A DNA stretch of 64,000 bases, taken from the NCBI GenBank assembly GCA_037131105.1, contig JBAXRQ010000001.1, positions 830,217 through 894,216 of the forward strand, given 5' to 3'. The notes under the pieces were generated by a model that was not told the origin of the DNA, searched no databases, and worked only from the letters and a program-made list of their open reading frames with translations. The translations under genes and the position numbers were made by a program. Positions 28,402-63,739 of the stretch are shown one piece after another. Position 1 is the first letter of the stretch. Each line of letters opens with the position of its first letter. The stretch is from a bacterium. Lineage in GTDB: Bacteria > Patescibacteriota > UBA1384 > CAILIB01.

Positions 28402-28517
28402 GCCATCACCTCCTTATGCGCTTAGGATACACCTGCCCCGCCGAAGGGACAACGCATTGACATCTTCCAGGTTATATGGTATAAATCTGACGAGATTTAG
28501 TTTCAGGAGGAACAGAA

Positions 28518-30406: not shown

Positions 30407-30454
30407 CGAATTGGGGCAACTATAGCAGTAGCCTGGAATCTGTCAATCAGTAAT

Positions 30455-36237: not shown

Positions 36238-36858
36238 CTAGCGGGGTAACAGAGCACCAACCTGATAGCGGTGCCCCCTCAGCATTTTACTGAGAGTGGG
36301 CATGGCATTGTGCTGCAGCCAGACGACCTGTTTTACATTCAGCATAAAGCCCTGCTCTGTCACACTCACCGCTGGAGTACCCAGGCGTAGCTTAGCTACA
36401 GTGGCCAATGCCTCAGGATTAACGAAATCCGGATCCATGTAGCCGCGAAAGCCCGGCTTGCTTACCTCCAGGTTTGGGTTGCAACAAAGATAGTAGGCTG
36501 CAGTTGCCACCTCATCCACCGTAAACGTAAACCACTTGGTCGACGGCTTGTTCTTCCTGCAAAAGCGGACTGCATAGACATGCCGCTTATCATGGTTACC
36601 GATGACCTCGATAGTCGGTTTGCCCCACTTGTACATCTCGGCAACACTCGACTGCGTGACGTCCGCATAGGCATCGGCATGAGAGCCTTTGTAGCCTGGA
36701 AGCCGCTTGGCGAACAGAGTGTGCAGCTCCCTCCCCAGGTCATCAGGTACCACGAACCCCTGATTAAGCAGATCTTTGCAGACCTTGCCAACGACAGTTG
36801 CATCGTACGCCGCGTAGAGCTTTGGGCTCACCGGCGCCTTAACTAACGCTTTGGTCAT
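36238..36858 (-). CDS. Hypothetical protein
   Basis: 206-aa ORF containing VIGNHD. I could not assign a family. Confidence 0.35.
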   Translation of the reverse strand: MTKALVKAPVSPKLYAAYDATVVGKVCKDLLNQGFVVPDDLGRELHTLFAKRLPGYKGSHADAYADVTQSSVAEMYKWGKPTIEVIGNHDKRHVYAVRFCRKNKPSTKWFTFTVDEVATAAYYLCCNPNLEVSKPGFRGYMDPDFVNPEALATVAKLRLGTPAVSVTEQGFMLNVKQVVWLQHNAMPTLSKMLRGHRYQVGALLPR

Positions 36859-37028
36859 GATTCATCCTCTCCCGTATAGACTGAGACGGTTATACCAGGT
36901 GATTCTTAACCTGTCAATCTGTAAATAAATGTGCGGCTTGACTAACAAATAATAAAAAGTTACTCTCCGAGCATGTTGCAGAGGACTTGACCACCTAGGC
37001 GACATAAGAACAAGGAAGGGAAGAGATA

Positions 37029-37571
37029 ATGACCACCGTTGACAACACCACACCAGGAGCAGTCGCACCAGCAGGACGAGTAGCAGACAACGTACCGCTC
37101 TGCTTCCTCCATGAGGATGATCCCGCTGCCTATTTTGGCGCATGCGAGGGAAAATTGACCACTCTCCCACCGCATCCGAAGACAGGACAGGTTATAACCT
37201 GTTGCACCGCCCACCGGACTAACGCCGACACCAAGCTCTCCAACACGGCTGAATATCTGGCCGAACGAAGCCTGCACATGGAGGCAATTCCCCAGGACGC
37301 CCCTACCCAACCCTGCAAGCTGACCACCTGCGGAGCTGACGCGTCCTACGTCATCGGAAACCCCAAAAGCAGGACTGACCACCCCTGCTGCAGCAACCAC
37401 ATTAAGCAAGTCGCCGATTTGCACGGGATGGTTGCACATACCCGCATCGCACCTTGCGACTACGGAACTGAGCTGATCCAGCTCCCCCCTTCAGAAGAAG
37501 TCTTGAGAAGTGGGATTCCCCTCGTCGACCCCCATACGGAGGCTCAAAACGCCAACTGGCTTTACAGCTGA
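37029..37571 (+). CDS. Cys-rich hypothetical protein
   Basis: 180-aa ORF with about 10 Cys, including CC pairs. Confidence 0.3.
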   Translation: MTTVDNTTPGAVAPAGRVADNVPLCFLHEDDPAAYFGACEGKLTTLPPHPKTGQVITCCTAHRTNADTKLSNTAEYLAERSLHMEAIPQDAPTQPCKLTTCGADASYVIGNPKSRTDHPCCSNHIKQVADLHGMVAHTRIAPCDYGTELIQLPPSEEVLRSGIPLVDPHTEAQNANWLYS

Positions 37572-46491: not shown

Positions 46492-46503
46492 CAATGCTAA
46501 AGC

Positions 46504-46536
46504 AAAAACCGCACTACCCGAAGGTCGTGCGGTTTT
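46504..46536. terminator. Bidirectional hairpin terminator (copy 2)
   Basis: Same 33-nt hairpin as 43784..43816, placed between convergent genes. Confidence 0.55.
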
Positions 46537-46578
46537 GGACTCCTGCCACTCTAGAACACTTCTCACCAACCTATAGCC

Positions 46579-46977
46579 CTAAAGGTTGACCCCATACCAC
46601 GGCCTGGCCTTAAAGAACTCACGCACCTCCTCGCTAACTTTTTCACCAACCTGATCTATCAGGCTCTTTGCCACCTTTCCGGCCTCTTCGCGTAGGTCCT
46701 CTGGGACTGATTTACCCAAGGAAGATGAAAAGCCTGAAATAACACCCTTCATATTAACTGTCCCCCCGCCTTTTCTCTTTACCTTCAAACCCTTTTTGCC
46801 ATGTGCAGCAGCAAATTCAAGTGCATAACTCAGTATCTCTGTGTGCACATATTTGGAGGAACCAATACCCACCACCAGCTCACCGTCAGAAAGCTCTGCC
46901 ACAACAACCTTTGCGCCATCGCCAAAGGCCATTTCCGTCCACAAGGACTTTTTATTCAACAGACTGAAACCAATCAT
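46579..46977 (-). CDS. Hypothetical protein
   Basis: 132-aa ORF between the two TrmB paralogs. Confidence 0.35.
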   Translation of the reverse strand: MIGFSLLNKKSLWTEMAFGDGAKVVVAELSDGELVVGIGSSKYVHTEILSYALEFAAAHGKKGLKVKRKGGGTVNMKGVISGFSSSLGKSVPEDLREEAGKVAKSLIDQVGEKVSEEVREFFKARPWYGVNL

Positions 46978-47127
46978 GCTAGCACCCGCTTTTCAAAGGA
47001 TCACCTCAGGTCTCCCCTCAGTGTCGGGAGCATCCTAGCACAATTATTCATAATTGTCAATAACTAAGACTTTTTATATAAGATATATATTGAATATTAT
47101 TATAATATCGTCTATTATATAGACTAT

Positions 47128-47889
47128 ATGGATAAAGAATCCCTCCTCTCCGAGATCGGCCTCAGTGACAAAGAGACCAAGACCTACCTGGCCATTCTTG
47201 AGCTGGGCAGCAGCACCATCAAGCCCATCGCCCTGCGCTCAGGCATCAAGCGCACCTCCATCTATAACTTCATTGACCGCCTGGTTGAGCTGGGCCTCAT
47301 CACCCAGACCGTAGTACGAGGCCGCACCCATTACCAAGCCCTTCCTCCTTCGCACCTGGCCGACCTGCAGAGAGAGCGCCTACACCGGGTAGAATCAATA
47401 CTGCCGGAGCTTACCAGCCTGTTTAACCTGAACTCCTCCAAGCCCCGCATGCACTACTATGAGGGCCCCGAGCAGATGAAGAATATCGTCCGAGAAGAGC
47501 TCTCCTGCACCAAGGAAGCCCTCTACATCTGGCCCAGCGCCGAAAGCACCGAGATGATCGGCGGGAAGCGGTTCATGACCGACATCGACAAGCAGCGCAT
47601 AGAGCGCGGAGTACGCATTCGTACCATTCGCATGCACGACCAGACCGAGCATCTCTTTGAGACGTCAGCCCACGGCACCGCCTTACTTCGGGAAGTACGG
47701 TTCGCACCTGAGAATGAGAACTATAAGATGGGAATGGGAATCTACGACACTGGCAATGTCAGCTTCTTCAGCTCAAAGGAGGAGGGCTTCGGCATCCTTA
47801 TCGAGAGTAAGGAGCTCAGCGCCATGCTGCGAAGCCTGTTCGAACTGCTTTGGCAGGTGTCCACCCCCGCCAAGCCAGGACAGGGGTAG
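47128..47889 (+). CDS. TrmB-family transcriptional regulator (paralog 2)
   Basis: 253 aa, the same length and architecture as 45730..46491. About 55-60% identical to it by eye. Confidence 0.65.
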   Translation: MDKESLLSEIGLSDKETKTYLAILELGSSTIKPIALRSGIKRTSIYNFIDRLVELGLITQTVVRGRTHYQALPPSHLADLQRERLHRVESILPELTSLFNLNSSKPRMHYYEGPEQMKNIVREELSCTKEALYIWPSAESTEMIGGKRFMTDIDKQRIERGVRIRTIRMHDQTEHLFETSAHGTALLREVRFAPENENYKMGMGIYDTGNVSFFSSKEEGFGILIESKELSAMLRSLFELLWQVSTPAKPGQG

Positions 47890-52727: not shown

Positions 52728-54041
52728 TTAGGGGGTCAGCCGGTTCACACCGCGGTGCAGGTAGGTCACTTCCCTGATATTCTCAGTGTTGAACATCTTC
52801 ATCATCATGCGGACCGGTCCGATTCCGGCGCCACCGTGAGGTGGGCAGCCGTACTTGAAGAAGTCGAGATAGGTGCCAATGGACGCCTCTGTCAGCCCCT
52901 TGTCCAGAGCCTGCTTCTTAAGAACCTCGTAGCGATGCTCACGCTGGGCACCGGTAGTGATCTCTACCCCGTTCCACATCAAGTCAAAGCCTCTAGTGAT
53001 GCCGGGCCGGTCCTCGTACCGCATGTGGTAGAAAGCGCGACTCTCGATAGGATACTCCGTAACGAATACGAACTCGTGGCCATGTTTCTCCATGATGACC
53101 TCGGAAAGCTTCTTCTCTTCCTCAGGGTTGAGGTCGCCGACTTTGTCGCTCTTGATGTCAAACGGCTTGAGCAGCTCCTTGGCCTCGGCCAGGGTTACCC
53201 GGGGAAACGGCAGCGTAGGCACCACCAGCTCGCGACCGAACAGCTCCTTGATCTTCTCCCCGTGCCGCTCCTTGATCGTAGTGAGCACAGAGGCGATCAT
53301 TCCTTCAAGGTTGGCAGCGATGTCCTCATGAGAGTCAATGAACGACATCTCGAAGTCATAGCCGGTGAACTCGGTGGCATGCCGGGTGGTGAATGAGGGC
53401 TCAGCCCGGAACACCGGCCCGACCTCAAATACCTTCTCAAAGCCGGAGGCCATAGCCATCTGCTTGTAGAACTGGGGAGACTGGGCCAGATAGGCCTTGC
53501 CGCCGAAGTAGTCGACGGTGAAGAGCTCAGCTCCGGACTCGCTCGGAGCGCTCATGAACTTGGGCGAGTGGATTTCCAAGAAGCCCTTTTCCAGGAAGTA
53601 CTTCATGAACGCCTCCTCAAAGGTGGTCCAGACCTGGAAGATTAGTAGGTTTTTGGGCTTCCTCAGGTCCAGCCAGCGGTAGTCCAGGCGCAGCGACTGG
53701 TCGGTCTCCCCTTCACCCTTCTCAACTACGGGAATAGGCAGCTCAGGGGCGGCGGCAGAGAGCACCTCGACGCTTTCAACCTGGATCTCAGCCCCGCCGG
53801 GAGCCTGGGGAGCGGCCACTGCCACACCCTCGACGACGATCACCGATTCCAAGGAGATATCCTCAGCAGCGGCAAAGACGGCCTCATGCTCCTTGCTGAC
53901 CACGCACTGGATGGTGCCAGTGACGTCGCGCAGGATAAGGAACTGGATCTTGCTCTGGCGGCGGGCGGTCTGCAAAAAGCCCATCAGGCGGACTTTCTCT
54001 CCAGGCTTGGAGCCGGCCTGGGCGGTATAGGTTCGTTCCAT
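52728..54041 (-). CDS. aspS: Aspartyl-tRNA synthetase, archaeal/eukaryal type (likely non-discriminating)
   Basis: 437-aa class II aaRS with an N-terminal OB and motif 3 (GGAGIGPVRMMM). Co-occurs with gatCAB. Confidence 0.75.
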   Translation of the reverse strand: MERTYTAQAGSKPGEKVRLMGFLQTARRQSKIQFLILRDVTGTIQCVVSKEHEAVFAAAEDISLESVIVVEGVAVAAPQAPGGAEIQVESVEVLSAAAPELPIPVVEKGEGETDQSLRLDYRWLDLRKPKNLLIFQVWTTFEEAFMKYFLEKGFLEIHSPKFMSAPSESGAELFTVDYFGGKAYLAQSPQFYKQMAMASGFEKVFEVGPVFRAEPSFTTRHATEFTGYDFEMSFIDSHEDIAANLEGMIASVLTTIKERHGEKIKELFGRELVVPTLPFPRVTLAEAKELLKPFDIKSDKVGDLNPEEEKKLSEVIMEKHGHEFVFVTEYPIESRAFYHMRYEDRPGITRGFDLMWNGVEITTGAQREHRYEVLKKQALDKGLTEASIGTYLDFFKYGCPPHGGAGIGPVRMMMKMFNTENIREVTYLHRGVNRLTP

Positions 54042-54065
54042 AAAGGTGGGATTAGCGAGACTAGC

Positions 54066-54182
54066 GCGTTTGGATGCATTTCAAGGAAGGATTGAGTATT
54101 TGACCGAGGCGTACTCGCTGGTACGTTGAGGGAAAAACGGAAATCCTGACGAAGAAAGGCGCCAAACGCGTAGGACCGGGGA
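54066..54182 (+). repeat. Copy B of the conserved structured element
   Basis: Aligns with 12889..13000 at roughly 70% identity with conserved blocks. The hairpin GGCGUAC/GUACGUU needs two G·U wobbles on the plus strand. Confidence 0.5.
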
Positions 54183-54554
54183 AATAAAAATGCCCTCGCA
54201 CAATTACTCGAAAGTAATCATGTAAGGGCGACGTTAATCGCGGTGCCACCTTACTTCACTCCTGGCGGAGCCTTGTTTACGCTGTAACGGGCGCTCCCGA
54301 GGGGGTCTAGTATCCGCAGGAGCGGAGTTCTTCCCCTGGCTCAGCGGTGTCAGCCGCCTCAATGCCTATGCAAAGAGTATGGCAGAACCTGGAAAGGAGG
54401 GCAAGTGAGCTGGATTACAAACGTTTACAGCCCTGCCAAAGACCGCTATACTCATCCCAATGACCTCATACTCCTCTTTTAGCTTTTGCTGGCAGTCCCA
54501 CCTCCTTCTTCAGAAGCGAGCCCTGTTTTAGTACCAGTCTAAACCAGAAGACAG

Positions 54555-54585
54555 CGCCCGCTCCTGAAGCGGGTGTTTTGTTTTC
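54555..54585 (+). terminator. Rho-independent terminator closing an ORF-free ~500-nt interval
   Basis: CGCCCGC-tcctgaa-GCGGGTG stem followed by TTTTGTTTT. Confidence 0.55.
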
Positions 54586-54612
54586 GGCAAGGCACATCTT
54601 GGAATTTGAAAG

Positions 54613-55410
54613 GTGGATCGCATGAAACGCGCATTCGCGCCTAGCCTTCGAGGCTTACTAGATACGACAAGTAGTAAAATGCTGGCAGAGACGGCACCAT
54701 GGGTCCGACACGGACTAGAGCGCAGGCTGGACAGCGGCATTTTGAGGCTAGTCTCGGTATTCTCACCGGACTATTCCCGAGCAGCCGATCGGATTACCTG
54801 CAGTACACGAGTGAATGACGGACTCCCCTATGGCGCCCAGACACATCTAAATCTGGTAGCAGAAATGAGGGAGACCCTCGCCCAGTACGGGATTGACCTG
54901 GAATACAGCATTACCCTGACTGACGGAGACGTAGAATTTCCCAGGGTAATGCACCAGGTGGCCGACGGTGACGGTGAGCAGTTCCTGGATAACTGCCAGC
55001 AGAGCTGCCATGCCTTGGGCGAGGAAGCAGAGAGACTGGGTCTGAGGGTAACGATCTGTGGACGCCACAGCGTCATATTTCCTACCTGGTACAAGGTCTA
55101 CGACAAGTTGGTGTCGGAGCTTGGCAGACAGGTGGAGGCCGACCCCAGCCTCTCGGCCCGACTTGGCTGCTTCGCAAGCCGCAGGCTAAGTCTCTATAGG
55201 GACATGGGGGCCTGGGACCTCAGCGTAGGATGCTCGCAGGAAATGCTGATTAGGCAATGGGCCCAGTGCATGACCTGGGGCGAATGCTCAAGTCGGGACA
55301 TCGGGGCTGACATAGTGACGCTTGGCCACGCCACCCCTGTGCTGGACATGCTGAATCATCCCCTGGTCCGCAAGGGAAGGGAACGCATCCCTTTGCTAAG
55401 GATCAGATAA
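54613..55410 (+). CDS. Hypothetical protein
   Basis: 265-aa ORF preceded by GAAAGGTGGA. No recognisable family. Confidence 0.35.
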   Translation: MDRMKRAFAPSLRGLLDTTSSKMLAETAPWVRHGLERRLDSGILRLVSVFSPDYSRAADRITCSTRVNDGLPYGAQTHLNLVAEMRETLAQYGIDLEYSITLTDGDVEFPRVMHQVADGDGEQFLDNCQQSCHALGEEAERLGLRVTICGRHSVIFPTWYKVYDKLVSELGRQVEADPSLSARLGCFASRRLSLYRDMGAWDLSVGCSQEMLIRQWAQCMTWGECSSRDIGADIVTLGHATPVLDMLNHPLVRKGRERIPLLRIR

Positions 55411-55521
55411 CGAATCGTGTATGTGCACCATCCCCGCCCCGCCATTTCCAAGGAAGTGGCGGGGATGTTTTTTGGCTTACGAGAAGGGGAAAATGTGGTA
55501 CGTTGGTATAAATTCTCTATC

Positions 55522-56301
55522 ATGTCCACCTCTAAAGAACATACTCCCGGTGAAAAAATACGCGAGCTCCGTAAGGAGAGAGCTCTTTCTATTGAGGCAC
55601 TGGCCAATGAAGCGGGCATAACAGCGGTGGCACTAAGTAATATCGAGACAAAACAAGCACATCCACAGCGCAACACCCTTCTAAAGCTGATAAGGTGCTT
55701 GGAAAATGTACTGTCACTTTTACCAAGTATCAGAAGAAGCCTGGTGTACTCCTATGGTTATACCGACGTCTACGACGCCCCAACCCCTCCTGAAATAACC
55801 ACGGCGATAACTGCCTGGGAACTCCAGTTCAAGAACACCTCCTTCCCCGCCTATGTCATCGATATGACGATGAAAATTCACACGGCAAACCGTGCCATGC
55901 TAGGTCTCATGGACGAATCTGGCCAAGCTCGCACAGACCTCTGGGTATACGACCTAATTTTCTCCCCACCCCTTAAAAAGGGGCTACGGTTAGAAGGCAC
56001 CTATCAACTAACCTATAACTTGGTGGCATACATCTGGTTTGATCATCAGCCCTATTTTCGAGAATCCTGGTGGCAGGAAAGCCTTCTTAAAGGCCGTAAG
56101 AAGTACCCTCTTTTCGGAGAACTAATCGATGGCTTCTCCAGTGGTACACTCCCATTGCCGGAACTTGAGACCATGGAACCAGTCACCTTCACACTTGCTG
56201 ACGGAAGCAAGCTCACTTATGGCATACTCTCGGCAAATGTAGTTGAAGATCCACGGTTTAGAAGTATCCAATTCATCCCTATGGGCCACGAAAAGATATA
56301 G
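55522..56301 (+). CDS. MmyB-like transcriptional regulator (XRE HTH + MmyB-like C-domain), paralog 1
   Basis: HTH_XRE (GEKIRELRKERALSIEALANEAGITAVALSNIE) and a C-domain with KYPLFGEL. The track ORF starts at 55417; I prefer the internal Met. Confidence 0.6.
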   Translation: MSTSKEHTPGEKIRELRKERALSIEALANEAGITAVALSNIETKQAHPQRNTLLKLIRCLENVLSLLPSIRRSLVYSYGYTDVYDAPTPPEITTAITAWELQFKNTSFPAYVIDMTMKIHTANRAMLGLMDESGQARTDLWVYDLIFSPPLKKGLRLEGTYQLTYNLVAYIWFDHQPYFRESWWQESLLKGRKKYPLFGELIDGFSSGTLPLPELETMEPVTFTLADGSKLTYGILSANVVEDPRFRSIQFIPMGHEKI

Positions 56302-56377
56302 TGGACTTTATGGACGCTATCGTTAGCTGATGGGAGGATTGTTGTAAGGCTCATGCAACATTAGAAATCTTCTCGCC

Positions 56378-56764
56378 ATGATGAGAGACCACCTCACCAC
56401 CATCCAAGACCTTAAGGACCTTACCCAGAGGTTTAAAAAGGAGCGAAACTGGGGCGCCAACCACACCCCAAAGAATCTGGCCGTTTCCATCGCCATCGAA
56501 GGAGCCGAGCTAATGGAGCACTTCCAATGGGAGGATGTGATCAGACCTGACTCAAGACTCGAAATAAAACAGGAACTAGCCGATGTGGTGATTTACTGTC
56601 TATTTTTTGCACAGGCAAGCAGGATTGATTTAGCAAAAGCGATTGAAGAAAAGATGGCTCATAACGCTCGTAAGTATCCTGTTGAGCTTTTTAAGGGAGA
56701 GGGTGGAACAAATGAGGATTATTACAGAATAAAACGCGGATATCGCCAGAAACAACATGTGTAG
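56378..56764 (+). CDS. MazG-like nucleotide pyrophosphohydrolase
   Basis: EExxE-type helical NTP-PPase core (IEGAELMEHF...ELADVVIY). Confidence 0.65.
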   Translation: MMRDHLTTIQDLKDLTQRFKKERNWGANHTPKNLAVSIAIEGAELMEHFQWEDVIRPDSRLEIKQELADVVIYCLFFAQASRIDLAKAIEEKMAHNARKYPVELFKGEGGTNEDYYRIKRGYRQKQHV

Positions 56765-56796
56765 CTTCCTGGCTCGACTACTGCCAATGTGGTACG

Positions 56797-57621
56797 TTGG
56801 AAAAAACTTACCCAGATATGGCAGTAGCCCTGTTCCTCACATCAGGAGAAAAGATACGCGAGCTCCGTAAGGAACGCGGCCTTTCTATTGAGGCACTGGC
56901 CAATGAAGCGGGCATAACAGCGGTGGCACTAAGTAATATCGAGCTGAAGTCAGCCGCTCCGCAGCGCTCAACCATACTCAAGCTTCTTGACTGCCTCGAC
57001 TCAACACTTCCCATACCCGTGGAGAAACGTCGCGAGATTACCGATGCCTTTGGCTACATAGATATACCTGGCGTCCCCAACCAGCACGATATCGACAAAG
57101 CAGTACAGGCATGGCAAAAGCCATTCAAAAACACACCCTATCCAGCCTATATTCTTGACCGCGTTCAGCGCATCCATGACTGGAACGATCAAATGCTGGC
57201 CTTCATCGGTGAGGACATACAAGACCTGAAGGGCAGGACCATATTCGACCTGCTATTCGACGGGCGTTCCCGCGGCGTGGTGAATCTGGTCAATGAAGAG
57301 GAAGTAGTCACAAAGATGGTCAGGCACATGCGCAAGGAGTACAGGCCCTATATGGATGAGGAATGGTGCAAGCAATGCCTGGCAGATGCCCGGGCAAAGT
57401 ACCCTCTCTTTGGCGAGCTGTTTGACACTCTCCCCGACGAAGGCTCTCCCGCCCTTGACCTAAGGGCTACCGGCCCGATCATTCTCCGGGACAAGGAAGG
57501 CCACACCCTTCATTTTCAAATAGTAGGTATCGACCTCATAAGCGACCCCCGCTTCGGCGTGGTGCAGTACATCCCCCTGGATAAGGAGACTGCCCAGATC
57601 CTCACCAACCTCTTCAGCTAA
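56797..57621 (+). CDS. MmyB-like transcriptional regulator, paralog 2
   Basis: Same architecture as 55522..56301. Shares an identical ~64-nt HTH-coding tract with it. Confidence 0.6.
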   Translation: MEKTYPDMAVALFLTSGEKIRELRKERGLSIEALANEAGITAVALSNIELKSAAPQRSTILKLLDCLDSTLPIPVEKRREITDAFGYIDIPGVPNQHDIDKAVQAWQKPFKNTPYPAYILDRVQRIHDWNDQMLAFIGEDIQDLKGRTIFDLLFDGRSRGVVNLVNEEEVVTKMVRHMRKEYRPYMDEEWCKQCLADARAKYPLFGELFDTLPDEGSPALDLRATGPIILRDKEGHTLHFQIVGIDLISDPRFGVVQYIPLDKETAQILTNLFS

Positions 57622-57754
57622 ACGCGGAACGATTCCTAACGGCTATATTGACATTTCCCAGGTTACGTGCTACTATGCATCCGCCCATTAAACCTGAGTG
57701 AAGTAGATCGCAGGCGCCACCATGGCGCCAGATCAGATTTGAAAGGACAGAAAA

Positions 57755-58726
57755 GTGAGACTTGCAACTTGCAGTCTAATGCTCGCGCTGTTTCTGATGG
57801 CGAATGTCGCCCAGTCACAGCAGATCGACCCGTCGTTCCCCCTTTTGGGAAAGACGTACGGACCGGCCGGGATCTATATTCCGGACGCAGTGGGGATTTC
57901 AAACACCTCTCTGAACCCAGCCCGGCAGATGTCAATCACCGACATCTCTGCGAATAACCAGGTTGTTGAAGGCGATTTTGGTCGACTCAGCCTGGCCAAC
58001 AGCAACGCCGACTGGGAAATCGGCAATTACAGCTTCGTCAGCAAAGACCGTCGGGCAGTGGGACGCATTTCCTGGAACCACTTCACGGTGGGCCACGGGA
58101 TAATACCCGCGACAGATCCGGCCGAGATCGCCATGCGCGGAGACGCCTGGGAGCTGATAGGCGCATACCGCGTCAATAAGCACCTCGACGTTGGCGGCGC
58201 GATAGTTCCCGAGGACGCCACCCACTCCAGTCTGCAGCTCCAGGGTCAGACCCTGGCTTCAGGAGGCAGCAGGTCGCAGCGTCAGGGCCGAGTAGGCGCC
58301 TACTACCATGCTGGCAAGCTGGGTCTGGGTTACGAAGCAGGCTGGGAACGAGGTGTCGTTAGTAGCAGCATTCTTGGCAACGCACCGGTCAGCTCCGGAT
58401 ATAACCAGGATCACACCACCTACGGTGCCTCCTGGAGCCCGAAGCTGGGAACGACGGCGTTCTATAACCGCCAACGTTTCAACCTCAAGAATGAAGCGCT
58501 GGGCCTCGTGACCAAGACGGACTATTGGGGCGTCCAGCAGGCGCTCAGCCGCAAGGTAATCGCCCAGATTGCCCGCTCGGACAAGGCCACCGCACTTTCA
58601 GCAACCTGGTTGCCGGACGACCGCTATGGCCTGAACGTTTCATATACCAACAGGGCGTTCAGCACCTCGGAAGCAGCTTATGGCAAGGGCAACCTTACAT
58701 TCGTGAGCCTGTGGAAGAGCTTCTGA
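57755..58726 (+). CDS. Secreted Gly/Ser/Tyr-rich beta-barrel-like (porin-like) protein ending in Phe
   Basis: Signal peptide (ANVAQS|QQ). Amphipathic beta-strand-like composition. C-terminal ...TFVSLWKSF. Confidence 0.4.
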   Translation: MRLATCSLMLALFLMANVAQSQQIDPSFPLLGKTYGPAGIYIPDAVGISNTSLNPARQMSITDISANNQVVEGDFGRLSLANSNADWEIGNYSFVSKDRRAVGRISWNHFTVGHGIIPATDPAEIAMRGDAWELIGAYRVNKHLDVGGAIVPEDATHSSLQLQGQTLASGGSRSQRQGRVGAYYHAGKLGLGYEAGWERGVVSSSILGNAPVSSGYNQDHTTYGASWSPKLGTTAFYNRQRFNLKNEALGLVTKTDYWGVQQALSRKVIAQIARSDKATALSATWLPDDRYGLNVSYTNRAFSTSEAAYGKGNLTFVSLWKSF

Positions 58727-58870
58727 ACACACCAACCAAAGACAGAACGGATAAGGAGGGTCCGGAAGGGACGAGGCATCTGCCCCGTCCCTTTGACGTT
58801 TTAGCCTTAAAAACAACGTCCTCGGATAACCGATAATTTTAATAATTTCGTAATTATTATTACAACAATT

Positions 58871-58907
58871 TAACCTGATTGACAGGTTAAATAAACTATG
58901 CTACTAT
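58871..58907 (+). promoter_or_regulatory. Consensus sigma70 promoter (TTGACA-17-TACTAT) overlapped by palindrome TAACCTG-N5-CAGGTTA
   Basis: -35 at 58879..58884 and -10 at 58902..58907. The inverted repeat at 58871..58889 covers the -35. AAGGAGG RBS, then the GTG start at 58938. Confidence 0.55.
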
Positions 58908-58937
58908 CTACGCAACTTTGACAAGGAGGCACATCCC

Positions 58938-59564
58938 GTGAAGACGTTACTGGAAACAGACAACGGGATGTGCGTGGTTCAAGCCACCACAGCTCCCGAA
59001 GTCGAAGAACTGATCAGGCTTTTCGAAAAGATCGCCGAAGAGCAACACTGGCAGCCAGGGGACCAGCTACGCGCCTACCCCGAGTCCTCTATTCACTTCG
59101 GACTTATGGCCGGCACAAGTTTTATCGGCGGCCTACAGCTCGTTCTGGGAGGAAACAGTAAGGAAGGTATGCCCTGCCTCACCGTATGGCCAGAACTTGA
59201 CCTGAGATACCAAACCGATGTTGCTGACATTGCCTTGCTTGCTCTCGATGAAAAACATCGCGGGCAAAACGAGCTCTTCTGGCCACTCTGCATAGAAATG
59301 TGGAGATACTGTGAACGGGCAGGAATCACTCGGCTGATGGTTGAGGCAACACGTGAGAAGCAAGTGCTGTACAGGCGGTTCGGATGGCCCCTCAAGGCTG
59401 CCGGCGAAGTCCGACTCCATTGGGGAGAACCCTGCCAGCCCTGTTGGATGACCACAGCAGAAATCAATACAGAAATGGCGACAAAAAGTTCGCGAGGGAG
59501 CCTAAAATATGCCACCATCTTTTCCCTGATGCACCGCATCAGGGACTCTGACGAACGACCCTAG
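58938..59564 (+). CDS. GNAT-fold acyltransferase, autoinducer-synthase/N-acyl-amino-acid-synthase-like
   Basis: 208 aa with a LuxI/FeeM-like sequence pattern (IRLFEKIAEEQHW ... RLMVEATREKQVLYRRFGW). Family assignment is tentative. Confidence 0.45.
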   Translation: MKTLLETDNGMCVVQATTAPEVEELIRLFEKIAEEQHWQPGDQLRAYPESSIHFGLMAGTSFIGGLQLVLGGNSKEGMPCLTVWPELDLRYQTDVADIALLALDEKHRGQNELFWPLCIEMWRYCERAGITRLMVEATREKQVLYRRFGWPLKAAGEVRLHWGEPCQPCWMTTAEINTEMATKSSRGSLKYATIFSLMHRIRDSDERP

Positions 59565-59582
59565 CAAGTCGTTCGTTTTTGG
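59551..59582 (+). terminator. Rho-independent terminator
   Basis: ACGAACGAC-cctagcaa-GTCGTTCGT followed by TTTTGGTTT. Overlaps the stop codon. Confidence 0.6.
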
Positions 59583-59635
59583 TTTACGATAATAGTGCCT
59601 AGTTTACTCCCCCTAATCCGAAACGAGGTATCCCT

Positions 59636-60481
59636 ATGGCAAAGAATGTCTCCAGAATCCTGAGTACCGCTGTAAGTCCGTACGACGAGTACTGCACGGG
59701 TTTTGGCATGCTTCCAGAAAGCACGTACATCACCACTCCTCTTATCGCAACCGGCGTCGCAGACATTGAATGCGCCCACGGCGGCTCAGACATACTAGAC
59801 AAGATTGTTTCCTTCGACCGTGCCGAAGGTGAATACGCCAATATCACTCAGACCAACATGGTCACCGTATCCTCATTCAACGGCATAAACGGCGCCATTC
59901 TTGGCTACGATTTTCTCAAGCAGAACATTCGCCCCTATCATCTTGTCGATCCTGAGAAGTATCCAAATGTCTATGACGCTGAGCCCCTCTTTAAGGCAAC
60001 CCAGGCGCTCTATGGCACCATAAAGGAAAAGCACTTCCCCATTGCCCCAGGCCAGCATATCCTTTGCGCCTATAAGAGCCTCTACAAGAACGGCCCCTGC
60101 ATGATGTACGGCGCCCTTGCCATTGCTATCGCCAAGGACCGTGAGCACAACGCCGATCTTTACATGGAGGATCACGGAACAGTCCTCGCAACCCATAGCC
60201 GAGAGGCAAATCTGGAGCAGCAAACCACCATTATCGAAAGCCTGCTGCTTTCAGTAAAGCGTATTTCTGAAAACCTGAACGTGGAGTATGAAAAAATCTT
60301 CATTGGCTTCAAGTGTAAGAACGTTCAGTCTGGCCAGGTTGGCTGTGTGATTACGGCCGCCCCCTATATTCATCTTGCCAAGAATGCAATCCCTAAAGGG
60401 GATATTCCAGCGCTTGAACATATGAGTCTTTCTGACTGGCAAAGCCAGGTCAGTGGCTCATATATGAACCAACCCGCCTGA
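59636..60481 (+). CDS. hdcA: Pyruvoyl-dependent histidine decarboxylase proenzyme homolog (HdcA family)
   Basis: Block-wise match to Lactobacillus 30a HdcA as I recall it (IVSFDRAE, NMVTVSSFNG serinolysis site at Ser79-Ser80, ILGYDFL, ITAAPYIHL). Confidence 0.75.
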   Translation: MAKNVSRILSTAVSPYDEYCTGFGMLPESTYITTPLIATGVADIECAHGGSDILDKIVSFDRAEGEYANITQTNMVTVSSFNGINGAILGYDFLKQNIRPYHLVDPEKYPNVYDAEPLFKATQALYGTIKEKHFPIAPGQHILCAYKSLYKNGPCMMYGALAIAIAKDREHNADLYMEDHGTVLATHSREANLEQQTTIIESLLLSVKRISENLNVEYEKIFIGFKCKNVQSGQVGCVITAAPYIHLAKNAIPKGDIPALEHMSLSDWQSQVSGSYMNQPA

Positions 60482-60492
60482 CACACTAAGGT

Positions 60493-62700
60493 ATGGCCTA
60501 TCTCATCACAGGCCTCTATTGCTTCTGCCTAGCCTTTCTAGTGGCTTCAGCGCTATTTATCTATTTCAAAAACTCGAAGTCTTGGCTGAACCGCTATTTC
60601 CTGCTCTTAAGTGTCTCAATATTCGCATGGCTACTCACCCTCTACTTTTTTGATCGGCAGGCAGATTCATCCCTATTAACTCTCCTGGGCCGCGCCAACT
60701 TTACTTCAGCCGCCTTCATCGTCCTCTTTAATTATCTTTTCACTCCCCAGGTAGTAGGAGAACGCTCAAAGTGGACATGGCTGCTTGTGGCAGAGACCGT
60801 CATCCTTGCGGGCCTTACACAGTTTACAGGACTTATTGACCATAGTGAGCACCTAAAGGATGGCCAGCACATCACCCAGTTTGGTCCTCTTTTTCCATTC
60901 TATATCGTCCATATCGTCGTATACGTCCTCGTGGCGCTCTACCTTACCTTTTTCGCCTACAGGAAGGTCAAGGCAGCCGTTCGTAGCCAGCTCAACATCA
61001 TCGGATTCGGTGTGTTTCTCATGGCAGGCATAGCCATCTTCACCAATATCATTCTCCCCTACGGATATAACTTTTTTGACTTTCAAGAGGTAGGAGCACT
61101 TTCAACCACCTTCTTCCTCCTTGCAATAGCGTACGCCATTAGCGCCCATCACCTGTTTGATATCAGAGTAATCATCAAGAGAACGGTAATCTACACCGGT
61201 CTCCTGATCTTTGCCCTGCTGACATACAGCATGGTCATCTTCTTCTTTACCAACCTGTTCGGCGGCAATGGAAGCGCCTTTGACACCCGCAACTTCCTGG
61301 TAAACCTCCTCGCCGCCGGCCTCATCGCCGTAGGCTACGACCCACTGCGCCGCACCCTGGAGGACAAGACCGACTCCTTCCTCTTCAAGAAGGAATACGA
61401 GGAGCAGGCCGTACTGAACGAACTGGGCCGCAAGCTAAACGACGTAGTCGCCCTGGACGAGGCGCTTGACCTGATGATGCAGACCATTGTGAAGGTCTTC
61501 CACCTTCACCACGCTGTCACCTTTGTCTTCCAGCCGGCTGAAAACAGCGAGGTGGCCATCAAGCGGATCAAGCAGATCGGCTACACCAGCATGAACCACG
61601 TCTACCTGAACGACGACGACTTCACCATCAGCTACTTTAGTAGCCATCCTGGCGTCACCCGCCTCGACGTGCTGAACCAAGAGACTGAGGAGGAAAAGCG
61701 CCGTTTCAGCAATCTAAGCAATGGCAATACCAAGAGCCTTCCCAAAGAGACCAGTCACCTGATCCGCCAGCATGCTATCAAAGTAGCCGTCGCCAAGAAG
61801 CTTACTGATCTAAGCGCCGCCCTGGCTATTCCTCTTCACCTGAACCAGCAGCCCATCGGCCTTATCCTGCTTTCGGACAAACTCTCTGGCGACACCTTTT
61901 CCCCTGAGGACGTGACCCTTCTAGATACCATGGCTACCCAGGCCATCTCCTCCATCCAGAAGGCTAAGCTCTACGAAGGTGATCAGATGAAGAGCGAATT
62001 CGTCTCTATCGCCTCTCACGAGCTATTAACCCCGGTCTCTGCCATGGAAGGCTACCTCTCCATGATCTTGGATGAGAACATGGGTAAGGTGGACGCCCAG
62101 GCTCGCAACTATCTGGATAAGGTCTATATCTCTTCCAAGCGCCTCTCCGCCCTGGTTAAGGACCTGCTCTCCGTCTCACGTATCGAAGCTGGCCGCATGA
62201 AGATGGAACCCCAGTCACTAGACATGAATAAGCTTATCCATGACACCATGGACCAGTTGAAATTCCTGGCTGAGAACAAGAAGCTCAAGATGACCTACAA
62301 GGCTGCCGACAAGGCCCTACCCCCTGTCTGGGCTGACTCTGACCGTACCATGCAGGTATTGGTCAACCTGGTAAGCAATGCCATCAAGTACACTCCAAAG
62401 GGTGACATCGTCATTACCGCTAGCCACAGCCTGCAGCCCACCCCTCATGTCCAGGTTTCAGTCACTGATACCGGCCTCGGTATCAGCAAAGCTGCTCAAG
62501 CCCACCTCTTCGAGAAGTTCTACCGCGTCGCCACCCCGCAGACCACCGGTATCGTCGGCACCGGCCTAGGTCTCTATATCACCAAGTCGATCATTGAGAT
62601 GATGGGCGGGGTCATGACCCTGAAGAGTACCGAGGGCAAGGGCAGCACCTTCAGCTTTACCCTGCCCACCTTTAAGGTGGAGAAGTCCAGGCCAGAGTAA
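60493..62700 (+). CDS. 7TM-GAF sensor histidine kinase
   Basis: N-terminal 7 TM helices, a central GAF-like region, HisKA (SIASHELLTPVS) and HATPase_c (GTGLGLYITKSIIEMMGG). Confidence 0.85.
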   Translation: MAYLITGLYCFCLAFLVASALFIYFKNSKSWLNRYFLLLSVSIFAWLLTLYFFDRQADSSLLTLLGRANFTSAAFIVLFNYLFTPQVVGERSKWTWLLVAETVILAGLTQFTGLIDHSEHLKDGQHITQFGPLFPFYIVHIVVYVLVALYLTFFAYRKVKAAVRSQLNIIGFGVFLMAGIAIFTNIILPYGYNFFDFQEVGALSTTFFLLAIAYAISAHHLFDIRVIIKRTVIYTGLLIFALLTYSMVIFFFTNLFGGNGSAFDTRNFLVNLLAAGLIAVGYDPLRRTLEDKTDSFLFKKEYEEQAVLNELGRKLNDVVALDEALDLMMQTIVKVFHLHHAVTFVFQPAENSEVAIKRIKQIGYTSMNHVYLNDDDFTISYFSSHPGVTRLDVLNQETEEEKRRFSNLSNGNTKSLPKETSHLIRQHAIKVAVAKKLTDLSAALAIPLHLNQQPIGLILLSDKLSGDTFSPEDVTLLDTMATQAISSIQKAKLYEGDQMKSEFVSIASHELLTPVSAMEGYLSMILDENMGKVDAQARNYLDKVYISSKRLSALVKDLLSVSRIEAGRMKMEPQSLDMNKLIHDTMDQLKFLAENKKLKMTYKAADKALPPVWADSDRTMQVLVNLVSNAIKYTPKGDIVITASHSLQPTPHVQVSVTDTGLGISKAAQAHLFEKFYRVATPQTTGIVGTGLGLYITKSIIEMMGGVMTLKSTEGKGSTFSFTLPTFKVEKSRPE

Positions 62701-63266
62701 TTACGCCCCTACGGGGATATCCCGGGAACGCAGAAACTCGGCCGCTTCCTTACGGGTCACCGACTTATTGGCAGTCAGCCTGATAATAAAGGGCTCGACA
62801 CCGTCTATCGTGGCTAGTCGAAGGGCGTACAGTCCAGAGATCATTTCATTGGCCTACACCTCTTCCAGCCTGTCGGCAAGATCCTCTACTCTAGAGTATT
62901 GTTTGAAGGCCAGACCTGAATCAAAATCAAGATCACGGTCTTCGTTAATCTCAAGACTGAAGAGTTTCATAGCGCTGAAAGTGACCTGGTTTTCATAAGA
63001 GTGCCAACCCCAAGCGAATCAGTGGCCCATTCAAGGACCTCCCCTTCCGAAATCAGCTTGGGCAAATATACTACGAAGACGGTGTCCACATTGTCCATAG
63101 TGCCAATTTCAATTACCCCCTCAGATAGAGCCAGACTAGTCCGAGCCATACGCAAGGCCTCGAAAAGATCACCCTCGTAAGGCTTTTCAAGATAGAAGAT
63201 CGCACGCTTTTCTGTCTGAAAAAAGGTAGGCATGGTAAAAGTTACTTGAATAATAGCATAAGCCAA
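62701..63266 (-). pseudogene. Fragmented gene (three consecutive reading-frame pieces)
   Basis: A 99-aa ORF followed, across one frameshift and one stop, by 38-aa and 50-aa coding-like pieces. Confidence 0.3.
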
Positions 63267-63346
63267 GGATAGATAACAAGTAAGCTTTCCAGTTGCGAAA
63301 ATTTTTCCAAGAGCCTACTATGATCCTAGATTACTAACCTGCCCCT

Positions 63347-63739
63347 ATGCCTGCAGAAGGAACCACCATATTGCTAGCTGAAGACGACATCATCCTGGCC
63401 GAGCTCTACACTGAGCGCCTTAAGCAGGAGGGATTCAACGTATTGCACGCCGCTGACGGCGAGGCCGCCCTGAAGTTCGTCAAGGAGGACCATCCTGCCC
63501 TGGTTATCCTGGACATCATGATGCCGAAAATGAACGGACTCGATGTACTAAAGCAGATGAAAGAGGACCCTGCTACTAAGAACATCCCGATAATCGTGGT
63601 CACCGCCCTGGTTCAGGAGATCGAGAAGATCAGCAAGATGATGACCCAGGCCGACGCCTACATCGTGAAGTCCGAAGTACTACCCGGAGAGATCATTGAG
63701 CAGGTCAAGAAGCGCTTGGAGGCAGTCCAGGCCGCCTGA
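63347..63739 (+). CDS. Stand-alone response-regulator receiver (CheY-like)
   Basis: EDD...ILDIMMPKMNGLDV...K pattern with no output domain. Confidence 0.8.
   Translation: MPAEGTTILLAEDDIILAELYTERLKQEGFNVLHAADGEAALKFVKEDHPALVILDIMMPKMNGLDVLKQMKEDPATKNIPIIVVTALVQEIEKISKMMTQADAYIVKSEVLPGEIIEQVKKRLEAVQAA

What the first reader, a model, noticed from the sequence alone, without database searches (positions are those of the whole stretch)
58871..58907. Near-consensus promoter with a perfect 7-bp inverted repeat over the -35 in front of the GNAT-like gene
TTGACA-17-TACTAT is rarely this close to consensus. TAACCTG-N5-CAGGTTA overlapping the -35 looks like a repressor or activator site. The adjacent MmyB-like XRE regulators are candidate binders.
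Basis: seen in the sequence. Interest (0 to 1): 0.5.

Follow-up and report, generated by a model that had tools for sequence, protein, structure and literature searches.

The report
Promoter with operator-like palindrome over -35
This is a well-formed housekeeping-type promoter overlapped by a perfect 25-bp palindrome, in front of a signal-synthase-like gene of an uncultured Armatimonadota bacterium; it is an ordinary kind of regulatory site, but its half-site recurs inside four other promoters nearby, so a wider regulator is more likely than a private switch.

Summary
TTGACA (58879-58884), a 17-nt spacer and TG-c-TACTAT (58899-58907) lie 59 nt before the GTG of a FeeM/LuxI-like N-acyl synthase gene. 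The inverted repeat has 10-bp perfect arms (ATTTAACCTG-ATTGA-CAGGTTAAAT, 58868-58892), not 7. Local chance of such a repeat is 0.2-0.5%. The promoter is supported because 12 of 17 orthologous loci keep ATTGAC-17/18-TGC-TAnnnT before the same gene. "Rarely this close to consensus" is overstated: 15 sites in the window score 10/12 or better, and an identical one lies 1.2 kb upstream. The full palindrome is unique in about 74 kb and absent from orthologues. Its half-site is not unique: CAGGYTA sits in or just after the -35 of 5 of the 10 ATTGACA sites (5 versus 0.09 in shuffles). The neighbouring promoter also carries a 13/15 copy of the left arm plus spacer. The best reading is an operator for a dimeric helix-turn-helix repressor that occludes the -35 and belongs to a multi-promoter regulon. 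The MmyB-like proteins remain candidates only: the adjacency is not conserved and no copy precedes their own genes. This is a new member of a known kind, of modest interest. The conserved synthase-decarboxylase-kinase-receiver cassette downstream is the more intriguing feature.

The parts
58766..58793 (+). Terminator-like G+C-rich hairpin after the upstream 323-aa gene, followed by TTTGACGTTTT. It marks the start of an independent regulatory region.
   Evidence: 13-nt arms, 92% complementary; the 58-nt region folds at -25.5 kcal/mol, z = -2.75.
58826..58867 (+). AT-rich tract directly upstream of the -35 (UP-element-like; inferred).
   Evidence: Sequence; 58810-58915 is 28% G+C against about 55% for the window.
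58868..58892 (.). Perfect palindrome ATTTAACCTG-ATTGA-CAGGTTAAAT, centre 58880 (about -34 from the inferred start); putative operator.
   Evidence: folds as a 10-bp stem, z = -5.7.
58879..58884 (+). -35 hexamer TTGACA (6/6).
58899..58907 (+). Extended -10, TG-c-TACTAT (4/6 plus TG).
   Evidence: the same TGC-TAnnnT is found in orthologous promoters.
58914..58914 (+). Inferred transcription start (A, 7 nt after the -10), giving a 24-nt leader. Not measured.
   Evidence: Inference from the usual -10 to start distance; sequence.
58923..58929 (+). Ribosome-binding site AAGGAGG, 8 nt before the GTG.
   Evidence: AAGGAGG is the most widespread intergenic 7-mer in the window.
58929..58973 (+). 11-bp perfect stem (GCACATCCCGT / ACGGGATGTGC) enclosing the last SD base and the GTG start; a possible translation-limiting hairpin.
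   Evidence: the leader fold is -23.8 kcal/mol, z = -2.96.
58938..59564 (+). FeeM/LuxI-like N-acyl synthase gene (GNAT superfamily), the gene served by the promoter.
   Evidence: Pfam FeeM 26.2 bits against a cut-off of 27; AF2 pLDDT 92; best PDB fold hits are FeeM 2g0b, TM 0.69-0.78, then LasI and BjaI; the N-terminus aligns with orthologues.
59523..59576 (+). Two tandem hairpins at the end of the gene, the second followed by TTTTTGG; a likely partial terminator before the decarboxylase gene.
   Evidence: -31 kcal/mol, z = -6.25.
59636..60481 (+). Pyruvoyl-type histidine decarboxylase homologue.
   Evidence: Pfam HDC 2.1e-48; follows the synthase in 13 related loci.
60493..62700 (+). Sensor histidine kinase with a 7TM N-terminal region.
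   Evidence: Pfam HisKA_7TM, HisKA, HATPase_c; conserved third gene of the cassette.
63347..63739 (+). Stand-alone receiver-domain response regulator with no DNA-binding domain.
   Evidence: Pfam Response_reg only; the same gene follows the kinase in L031.
57648..57701 (+). Neighbouring promoter P1 (TTGACA-17-TACTAT with TG) of the 323-aa porin-like gene. It has CAGGTTA in the spacer (57659-57665) and ATTAAACCTGAGTGA (57687-57701), a 13/15 match to the left arm plus spacer of the palindrome.
   Evidence: chance 3.5e-4.
28457..28485 (+). Promoter-like site P4, TTGACA-tcttc-CAGGTTA-tatgg-TATAAA, before the 172-aa gene 28518-29036.
30419..30446 (-). Promoter P5, TTGACA-gattc-CAGGCTA-ctgc-TATAGT (11/12 with TG), before a 58-aa CxxC...CxxC ORF (30179-30355).
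36889..36917 (-). Promoter-like site P3, TTGACAGGTTAA-gaatcacctgg-TATAAC, before the 206-aa gene 36238-36858. It shares the 14-mer GATTGACAGGTTAA with the finding.
37187..37202 (.). 16-bp perfect palindrome ACAGGTTA-TAACCTGT: the same heptamers in the opposite (everted) arrangement, inside ORF 37029-37571.
55417..56301 (+). XRE-type HTH protein, paralogue of the MmyB-like gene (42% identity, near-identical HTH stretch); candidate binder only.
56797..57621 (+). MmyB-like regulator (XRE HTH plus MLTR_LBD); candidate binder only.

Best explanation
The site is a strong housekeeping (sigma-70/SigA-type) promoter with an extended -10. It transcribes the FeeM/LuxI-like N-acyl synthase gene. Through a leaky tandem-hairpin terminator it probably also transcribes the histidine decarboxylase and sensor kinase genes. 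The 25-bp perfect palindrome spans about -46 to -22 and contains the -35 hexamer. It is most likely the operator of a dimeric helix-turn-helix repressor. When bound, that repressor would keep sigma region 4 off the -35; release by a signal would switch the cassette on. The half-site (A)CAGGTTA also lies inside four other promoters in the window, and the left arm plus spacer recurs just downstream of the neighbouring promoter. The binder is therefore probably a regulator with several targets in this organism, not a private switch of this gene. Shown: the sequence features, their statistics, the conservation of the promoter architecture, and the recurrence of the half-site. Inferred: the transcription start, protein binding, repression rather than activation, and the identity of the protein. 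The nearby MmyB-like XRE proteins are possible binders, at roughly one chance in four or five.
For: Promoter: 6/6 -35, 17-nt spacer, TG-extended -10. Such sites are enriched 3.6-fold over shuffles, and 26-fold when TG is required. The site lies between a terminator-like hairpin and an RBS-preceded start. 12 of 17 orthologous loci keep ATTGAC-17/18-TGC-TAnnnT before the orthologous gene. Operator: the 10+10 perfect IR has a local chance of 0.2-0.5%. It is the only A+T-rich IR of >=10 bp in the window; the other nine have G+C-rich stems, most of them terminator-like. The AACCTG/CAGGTT cores are 11 bp apart centre to centre, one helical turn, as expected for HTH dimers including MmyB-like ones (PMC3406030). 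Recurrence: CAGGYTA lies within or just after TTGACA in 5 promoters against 0.087 in shuffles, maximum 1 in 300. It is the only 7-mer recurring at least 3 times at offsets 4-12 from the start of TTGACA sites. 7 of 20 heptamers fall in the 11.6% non-coding fraction, p = 0.005. The P1 15-mer is a 13/15 match, p = 3.5e-4. P2 and P3 share a 14-mer. Repression is favoured because the core promoter is already near consensus, with an AT-rich upstream tract, and the site is centred on the -35 rather than upstream of it (inference). The closest syntenic relative, L031, also has a long palindrome (17/18, 36 bp) over its core promoter.
Against: There are no expression or binding data. The full palindrome occurs only once in the window, in 9.7 kb beyond it, and in 30 related loci. 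It is not conserved in orthologues; these share 38-62% protein identity, so loss of an operator sequence is uninformative. The heptamers occur in only two fixed registers relative to the -35 (offsets 4 and 11). They also occur in inconsistent pair arrangements: inverted N5, everted N0, and about 24 nt apart. That is unusual for a single dimeric factor and could instead reflect promoter-module ancestry or a polymerase-related preference. No regulator gene is linked to the site by conserved synteny.
Confidence: 0.55

Rival explanations
1. The palindrome is the site of an activator used for positive feedback (autoinduction). This would resemble a lux box overlapping the -35 of a luxI-type synthase promoter. 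A factor responding to the cassette's own product, directly or through the 7TM kinase and receiver, would bind it and recruit RNA polymerase.
For: The gene downstream has the FeeM/AHL-synthase fold and is followed by a conserved sensor kinase and receiver. MmyB, the founder of the MmyB-like family, is a ligand-dependent activator whose relatives bind amphiphilic acyl ligands (PMC3406030). The arms contain ACCTG/CAGGT, as the Vibrio fischeri lux box does (from memory, not tested).
Against: The -35 is a perfect TTGACA and the -10 is TG-extended, so no activator is needed. The centre is near -34, not -41.5/-42.5. The spacing is CTG-N5-CAG, not CTG-N10-CAG. No LuxR-type protein or DNA-binding response regulator is encoded in the window. 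In three other promoters the heptamer lies in the spacer, a repressor-like position.
Confidence: 0.15
2. The adjacent MmyB-like XRE proteins (55417-56301, 56797-57621) are the binders. They would act as ligand-controlled regulators of P1 and of this promoter.
For: They are the nearest HTH proteins, and P1 lies directly after the second one. The two paralogues have near-identical HTH stretches. XRE-family genes accompany the cassette in most lineages: small divergent XREs in about 15 loci. An MmyB-like dimer is expected to read a palindrome with about 10 bp between half-sites, and its ligand pocket fits an acyl chain (PMC3406030).
Against: The adjacency is not conserved. Homologues at 52-55% identity sit beside AsnRS, thymidylate synthase and guanylate kinase genes without the cassette. 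L031 has the cassette next to tRNA-synt_1b with no XRE. No AACCTG/CAGGTT lies between 54387 and 57658, so there is no autoregulatory copy before their own genes, although XRE proteins are usually autoregulated (PMC12565409). Heptamer-bearing promoters lie 20-30 kb away.
Confidence: 0.22
3. No dedicated factor exists. CAGGYTA next to TTGACA would be a lineage-specific promoter feature (polymerase or sigma preference, or descent from shared promoter modules), and the second, inverted copy before this gene would be fortuitous.
For: The heptamer occupies only two exact registers: offset 11 in three promoters and offset 4 in two. Pair arrangements are inconsistent. About 0.67 chance IRs of this size are expected somewhere in 64 kb.
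Against: The spacer is not normally read sequence-specifically, and two registers 7 bp apart do not fit one polymerase contact. The left arm plus spacer recurs downstream of P1's start, where polymerase recognition is irrelevant. The same heptamers form a perfect 16-bp palindrome inside an ORF. The chance that a random IR lands on one of the five TG-extended promoters is about 0.003 (inference). The motif was not seen next to TTGAC in about 130 kb from other Armatimonadota.
Confidence: 0.12
4. The palindrome acts as a nucleic-acid structure (terminator, cruciform or recombination site) rather than as a protein operator.
For: It folds as a 10-bp stem at -10.7 kcal/mol, z = -5.7.
Against: The stem is A+T-rich with no U-tract after it on either strand. 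The upstream gene already has a G+C-rich hairpin. It lies upstream of the inferred start, so it is not in this gene's mRNA. Rfam finds nothing here. There is no repeat partner or mobile-element gene nearby.
Confidence: 0.03

Closest known systems
Operators of XRE/Cro-cI-type repressors overlapping a sigma-70 promoter (lambda, 434 and P22 repressors; DdrO with its RDRM palindrome in Deinococcus)
   Same: Dyad-symmetric site of about 20-25 bp with half-sites one helical turn apart, lying on the core promoter. In the DdrO case one XRE protein also serves many promoters (PMC12565409).
   Different: The sequence is unrelated to any motif I can name. No regulator gene is divergently adjacent here, although one is in most orthologous loci. 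The other four promoters carry single heptamers rather than full palindromes.
lux box / LuxR-LuxI autoinduction promoters
   Same: A palindrome overlapping the -35 of the promoter of an acyl-transfer signal-synthase-fold gene. The arms contain ACCTG/CAGGT (lux-box sequence recalled from memory).
   Different: CTG-N5-CAG rather than CTG-N10-CAG. The centre is near -34 rather than -42.5. The -35 is consensus, so no activator is needed. No LuxR-type gene is present.
NarL/NarP heptamer sites (7-2-7 inverted pairs plus isolated heptamers in varied arrangements)
   Same: A 7-bp unit occurs once as a tight inverted pair and elsewhere singly or in other orientations and spacings within promoters.
   Different: This is an analogy from memory only. 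The sequence differs, the pair is 7-5-7, and the only response regulator in the window lacks a DNA-binding domain.
MmyB 'B-boxes' of the methylenomycin cluster
   Same: Pseudo-palindromic sites proposed for an MmyB-type XRE regulator that controls a small-molecule pathway (PMC3406030).
   Different: MmyB is an activator. The B-box sequence could not be retrieved from the held library, so no comparison was possible. Linkage of the MmyB-like genes to this cassette is not conserved.

Membership tests
Sigma-70 (housekeeping) promoter with extended -10 | -35 hexamer close to TTGACA | tested here: met
   TTGACA, 6/6, at 58879-58884.
Sigma-70 (housekeeping) promoter with extended -10 | Spacer of 17 +/- 1 nt and a -10 of form TAnnnT | tested here: met
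   17 nt; TACTAT, 4/6, with A2 and T6.
Sigma-70 (housekeeping) promoter with extended -10 | TG one base upstream of the -10 | tested here: met
   TG at 58899-58900. TG-bearing near-consensus sites: 5 in the window against 0.19 in shuffles.
Sigma-70 (housekeeping) promoter with extended -10 | Placed upstream of a gene, and conserved at the orthologous position | tested here: met
   59 nt before the GTG, after a terminator-like hairpin. 12 of 17 orthologous loci have ATTGAC-17/18-TGC-TAnnnT, though 94-107 nt before the start.
Sigma-70 (housekeeping) promoter with extended -10 | A transcript 5' end 5-9 nt after the -10 | not testable with these tools
   No RNA data are available; the start at 58914 is inferred.
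Repressor operator overlapping a core promoter | Dyad symmetry beyond chance | tested here: met
   10+10 perfect IR; 0.18-0.48% of local shuffles reach it.
Repressor operator overlapping a core promoter | Half-site centres about one helical turn apart | tested here: met
   AACCTG centre at 58874.5 and CAGGTT centre at 58885.5, 11 bp apart.
Repressor operator overlapping a core promoter | Overlap with the -35, spacer or -10 | tested here: met
   The palindrome 58868-58892 contains the whole -35 and 8 nt of the spacer.
Repressor operator overlapping a core promoter | Further copies of the site in the genome, or conservation in relatives | tested here: inconclusive
   The full palindrome is unique in about 74 kb and absent from orthologues. 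Half-sites recur in 4 other promoters and a 13/15 copy lies in P1.
Repressor operator overlapping a core promoter | A protein that binds it | not testable with these tools
   Needs EMSA, footprinting or pull-down.
lux box (LuxR-type quorum-sensing site) | 18-20 bp palindrome with CTG-N10-CAG, centred near -42.5 | tested here: not met
   CTG-N5-CAG, centre near -34. The lux-box consensus is taken from memory.
lux box (LuxR-type quorum-sensing site) | A LuxR-type regulator encoded nearby | tested here: not met
   None was found among about 56 window proteins scanned against Pfam.
lux box (LuxR-type quorum-sensing site) | Controls a LuxI-type synthase gene | tested here: inconclusive
   The fold is closest to FeeM (TM 0.69-0.78), with LasI and BjaI next. 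It is the same superfamily but not a LuxI orthologue.
MmyB-like regulator target (B-box) | Sequence match to known B-boxes | not tested
   The B-box sequence was not retrievable from the held papers.
MmyB-like regulator target (B-box) | Conserved linkage of the regulator gene and the target | tested here: not met
   Homologues in L025-L027 lack the cassette. L031 has the cassette without the regulator.
Intrinsic terminator | G+C-rich stem followed by a U-tract | tested here: not met
   The stem has 3 G-C pairs of 10 and no T-run follows. It is not listed by the terminator scan.

The most novel reading that the evidence does not exclude
The heptamer (A)CAGGTTA may be the recognition unit of an undescribed multi-target regulator of an uncultured Armatimonadota lineage. 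Its strongest site, the perfect palindrome, would gate a conserved four-gene cassette: FeeM/LuxI-like N-acyl synthase, pyruvoyl histidine decarboxylase, 7TM sensor kinase and single-domain receiver. That cassette could make and sense an N-acyl-histamine-type signal, which would be a new kind of cell-cell signalling circuit.
Probability: 0.2. Interest if true: 0.65.

Novelty: new member of a known kind. Interest (0 to 1): 0.35.

Why it matters
Taken alone, this is a textbook arrangement: a strong promoter with a dyad-symmetric site on its -35. Its value is practical. It gives a defined 25-bp probe and a short list of co-marked promoters (57648, 28457, 30446, 36917) with which to fish out a regulator in a phylum that has almost no experimental genetics. 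It also marks the control point of a conserved synthase-decarboxylase-kinase-receiver cassette. The chemistry of that cassette (an acyl transferase of the AHL-synthase fold next to a histamine-forming enzyme and a membrane sensor) suggests an undescribed signalling system.

Tried and rejected
(1) Further copies of the full palindrome. With up to 3-4 mismatches or variable spacers I found only weak, intragenic chance-level hits in the window, 30 loci and 9.7 kb beyond the window.
(2) Phylogenetic footprinting. The three contigs holding the identical protein are 100% identical upstream, so they are uninformative. The next relatives share at most 62% protein identity and lack the palindrome.
(3) MmyB-like linkage. 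The contexts of three homologues showed no cassette and no motif.
(4) Known RNA families. Rfam gave nothing above threshold in 57400-60000, only a sub-threshold RNA-OUT hit (23 bits against 41), and only a tRNA in the whole window.
(5) PDB by sequence for the synthase family gave no hit; the fold search was needed.
(6) Literature. I found nothing on FeeM together with histidine decarboxylase, on Armatimonadota promoters, or giving the B-box sequence.
(7) One contig look-up failed, probably because of a wrong start codon, so the 5' side of the window could not be extended.
(8) I compared the motif from memory with sigma-B, sigma-54, DtxR/IdeR, LexA, IHF and Dcm-site patterns and rejected each on spacing or sequence. 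None of these comparisons is a tested result.
(9) A mobile-promoter duplication was rejected because similarity between the promoters stops at 14-19 nt.

Full report
**Observation.** The sequence is as described, and better. TTGACA lies at 58879-58884, followed by a 17-nt spacer and TACTAT at 58902-58907. A TG lies one base before the -10, giving an extended -10, TGcTACTAT. The inverted repeat is not 7 bp but 10 bp and perfect: ATTTAACCTG (58868-58877), ATTGA, CAGGTTAAAT (58883-58892). The -35 hexamer is built from the last four spacer bases and the first two bases of the right arm.

**Setting.**
- Upstream, the 323-aa gene ends at 58726 and is followed by a G+C-rich hairpin (58766-58793).
- A 28% G+C tract runs up to the -35.
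- Downstream, AAGGAGG (58923-58929) precedes a GTG at 58938 by 8 nt.
- The N-terminus of the encoded protein aligns with its orthologues.
- Taking a start near 58914 (inferred), the leader is 24 nt and the palindrome spans about -46 to -22, centred near -34.

**More than chance?**
- Perfect inverted repeats of 10 bp or more (spacer <=12) number 10 in the window, against 0.67 +/- 0.79 in dinucleotide shuffles. The other nine have G+C-rich stems, most of them terminator-like hairpins at gene ends.
- Only 0.18% of shuffles of the 211-nt intergenic region, and 0.48% of shuffles of its AT-rich core, contain such a repeat.
- The promoter match is good but not rare here. 15 sites in the window score at least 10/12 (4.2 +/- 2.1 in shuffles). 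Five of them have TG (0.19 in shuffles), and three score 11/12.
- An identical TTGACA-17-TACTAT with TG lies 1.2 kb upstream at 57648-57676.
- This enrichment shows that the organism uses canonical -35/-10 signals, which makes the prediction credible.

**The gene and its relatives.**
- The product matches Pfam FeeM at 26.2 bits, just under the cut-off of 27.
- An AlphaFold model built on 14 homologues (pLDDT 92) is closest to FeeM (2g0b, TM 0.69-0.78). The AHL synthases LasI and BjaI also rank among the top hits, alongside generic GNAT acetyltransferases.
- "GNAT-like" is therefore right; FeeM/LuxI-like N-acyl synthase is more precise.
- The identical protein occurs on metagenome contigs. Homologues (41 clusters) fall in Armatimonadota MAGs: Abditibacteriia, Chthonomonas and others.
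- In 13 related loci the synthase is followed by a pyruvoyl-type histidine decarboxylase; in 11 of these the fetched DNA also shows the 7TM sensor kinase behind it. In L031, as in the window, a single-domain receiver follows the kinase.

**Is the promoter conserved?** Yes in architecture. 12 of 17 orthologous loci have ATTGAC(A)-17/18-TGC-TAnnnT before the synthase gene. Their leaders are longer (94-107 nt). Part of that leader (CGCAAYCTGACAAC) is still recognisable in the window's short leader (CGCAACTTTGACAAG).

**Is the palindrome conserved?** No. None of those loci has a dyad over the -35. Eight carry a different conserved element, CGTCCCTCAAC, directly upstream of it. Most orthologous loci have a small (about 80-105 aa) divergent XRE-family gene upstream, with its own palindromes 36-60 nt further upstream of the -35. 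That gene is missing in the window. The closest syntenic relative, L031, also lacks an adjacent XRE. It has its own 36-bp palindrome (17/18) lying over a TTGTAC-18-TATAGT promoter. In the loci examined, only the two cassette versions without the neighbouring XRE gene carry a large dyad on the core promoter.

**Is the palindrome unique?** As a whole, yes. It was found nowhere else in the window, in 9.7 kb beyond it, or in the fetched loci. Its parts are not unique.
- CAGGYTA lies within or just after the -35 in five of the ten ATTGACA sites of the window. These are:
  - P1 at 57648 (+), before the porin-like gene;
  - P4 at 28457 (+), before a 172-aa gene;
  - P5 at 30446 (-), before a 58-aa CxxC ORF;
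  - P3 at 36917 (-), before a 206-aa gene;
  - the finding itself (P2).
- The count is 5, against 0.087 in 300 shuffles (maximum 1). CAGGTTA is the only 7-mer recurring three or more times at offsets 4-12 from the start of the 25 TTGACA sites.
- Seven of the 20 heptamers lie in the 11.6% non-coding fraction (p = 0.005). CAGGTTA ranks fifth among 7-mers by number of intergenic segments, behind the ribosome-binding site (AAGGAGG), CAAGGAA, the -35 motif (ATTGACA) and CTTAGGA.
- P2 and P3 share the 14-mer GATTGACAGGTTAA.
- P1 also carries ATTAAACCTGAGTGA at 57687-57701, just after its presumed start. This is a 13/15 match to the left arm plus spacer and the best match in the window (p = 3.5e-4 in shuffles of that intergenic region).
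- The same heptamers form a perfect 16-bp palindrome in the opposite arrangement at 37187-37202.
- The motif was not seen next to TTGAC in about 130 kb from other Armatimonadota.

**Mechanism.** I read the site as the operator of a dimeric helix-turn-helix repressor.
- The core half-sites are 11 bp apart, one helical turn.
- The site covers the -35, so a bound protein would exclude sigma region 4.
- Repression is favoured over activation because the core promoter is already near consensus and has an AT-rich upstream tract. Activator-dependent promoters typically lack a good -35 (established knowledge; inference here).
- The recurrence of the heptamer in other promoters, in repressor-like positions, points to a factor with several targets. 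The extended 15-nt match suggests that P1 and this promoter are the most tightly co-regulated pair.
- Caveats: the heptamers occupy just two exact registers (offsets 4 and 11 from the -35 start), and their pair arrangements vary. One dimeric factor does not easily explain this. It leaves room for a polymerase-related or promoter-ancestry explanation.

**Who binds?** The window encodes five candidate DNA-binding regulators: two MmyB-like/XRE paralogues, two TrmB-like proteins and one AbrB/MazE-like protein. It encodes no LuxR-type protein and no DNA-binding response regulator.

For the MmyB-like proteins:
- they are close by, and P1 lies directly behind one of them;
- XRE-family genes accompany the cassette elsewhere;
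- the MltR structure predicts a palindromic target with about 10 bp between reading heads and a pocket for an acyl-chain ligand (PMC3406030).

Against them:
- their nearest homologues lie in housekeeping contexts without the cassette;
- L031 has the cassette without them;
- no half-site precedes their own genes, although XRE proteins are commonly autoregulated (PMC12565409);
- three marked promoters lie 20-30 kb away.

I put this assignment at about 0.2.

**Comparison with known systems.**
- It works like a classical repressor operator on a sigma-70 promoter.
- It resembles a lux box in context, being a dyad on the -35 of a synthase of the AHL-synthase fold. It fails the lux-box criteria that were tested: spacing, position and presence of a LuxR-type gene.
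- The mix of one tight inverted pair and scattered single heptamers recalls NarL sites, by analogy only.
- It is not an intrinsic terminator, and no Rfam family matches.

**Verdict.** It is a new member of a known kind and of modest interest in itself. The recurrent heptamer and the conserved synthase-decarboxylase-kinase-receiver cassette are the leads worth following.

Noticed in passing
window 58938-63739; loci L009-L021, L030, L031: A conserved cassette: FeeM/LuxI-like N-acyl synthase, pyruvoyl histidine decarboxylase, 7TM sensor histidine kinase and (window, L031) a single-domain receiver. It was found only in Armatimonadota MAGs and metagenomes. The gene content suggests synthesis and sensing of an N-acyl-histamine-type signal. 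No paper in the held library links FeeM with histidine decarboxylase.
   Followed up: partly
L004, L011-L015, L017, L021: the 11-15 nt directly upstream of the -35: Eight orthologous loci share CGTCCCTCAAC(C/T)C abutting ATTGACA, although their spacers and leaders differ. It is probably a binding site of another factor. It is absent at that position in the window, where a degenerate AACGTCCTCGGATAACC lies about 55 nt upstream of the -35.
   Followed up: partly
L010, L013, L015-L017, L021 leaders; window 58910-58925: The orthologous genes have 94-107-nt leaders. They begin GGGGCATTC and contain a conserved CGCAAYCTGACAAC. The window keeps only a shortened version (CGCAACTTTGACAAG). This may be a leader RNA element.
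   Followed up: no
window 58929-58973: An 11-bp perfect stem (GCACATCCCGT / ACGGGATGTGC) encloses the last SD base and the GTG start codon of the synthase gene. The leader fold is -23.8 kcal/mol, z = -2.96. It may limit translation.
   Followed up: partly
window 59523-59576: Two tandem strong hairpins lie at the 3' end of the synthase gene. The second spans the stop codon and is followed by TTTTTGG (-31 kcal/mol, z = -6.25). This is probably a partial terminator that sets the synthase:decarboxylase ratio.
   Followed up: partly
L031 6949-6984: A 36-bp palindrome, TTTAACTAATTAAGACTA|TAGTCTAAATTAGTTAAA (17/18), lies centred on the -10 of the promoter-like site before the orthologous synthase gene in the closest syntenic relative. 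Its outer TTTAAC/GTTAAA match the outer bases of the window palindrome.
   Followed up: partly
window 37187-37202: A perfect 16-bp palindrome, ACAGGTTATAACCTGT, is made of the same heptamers in everted order. It lies 160 nt inside ORF 37029-37571 (no Pfam match), next to the heptamer-bearing promoter P3.
   Followed up: partly
window 55417-56301 and 56797-57621; 56779-56827: The two XRE/MmyB-like paralogues are 42% identical overall but share a near-identical HTH stretch (GEKIRELRKER.LSIEALANEAGITAVALSNIE), which suggests gene conversion or a shared target. A 9-bp inverted repeat, CTACTGCCA...TGGCAGTAG, brackets the start region of the second gene.
   Followed up: no
window 30120-30446 (- strand): Promoter P5 (11/12 with TG) drives a 58-aa ORF with two CxxC pairs (30179-30355), followed by a perfect 10-bp hairpin (30120-30144). 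This lies upstream of a G5/DPBB cell-wall hydrolase-like gene that has its own promoter-like site.
   Followed up: no
window 48981-51665 (- strand): The replicative helicase DnaB is interrupted by an intein with a LAGLIDADG homing-endonuclease domain. The L031 orthologue (472 aa) has no intein.
   Followed up: no
window 45730-47889: Two TrmB-family regulator paralogues lie in tandem. A very AT-rich segment with a TG-extended promoter (47060-47032, - strand) lies between them.
   Followed up: no
window 52728-58726 compared with L031 and L025: Relative to L031, where tRNA-synt_1b is directly divergent from the cassette, the window has about 6 kb inserted before the cassette: AsnRS, a 265-aa gene, XRE, MazG-like, MmyB-like and a porin-like gene. 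In L025 the AsnRS and MmyB-like genes sit in a different neighbourhood.
   Followed up: partly
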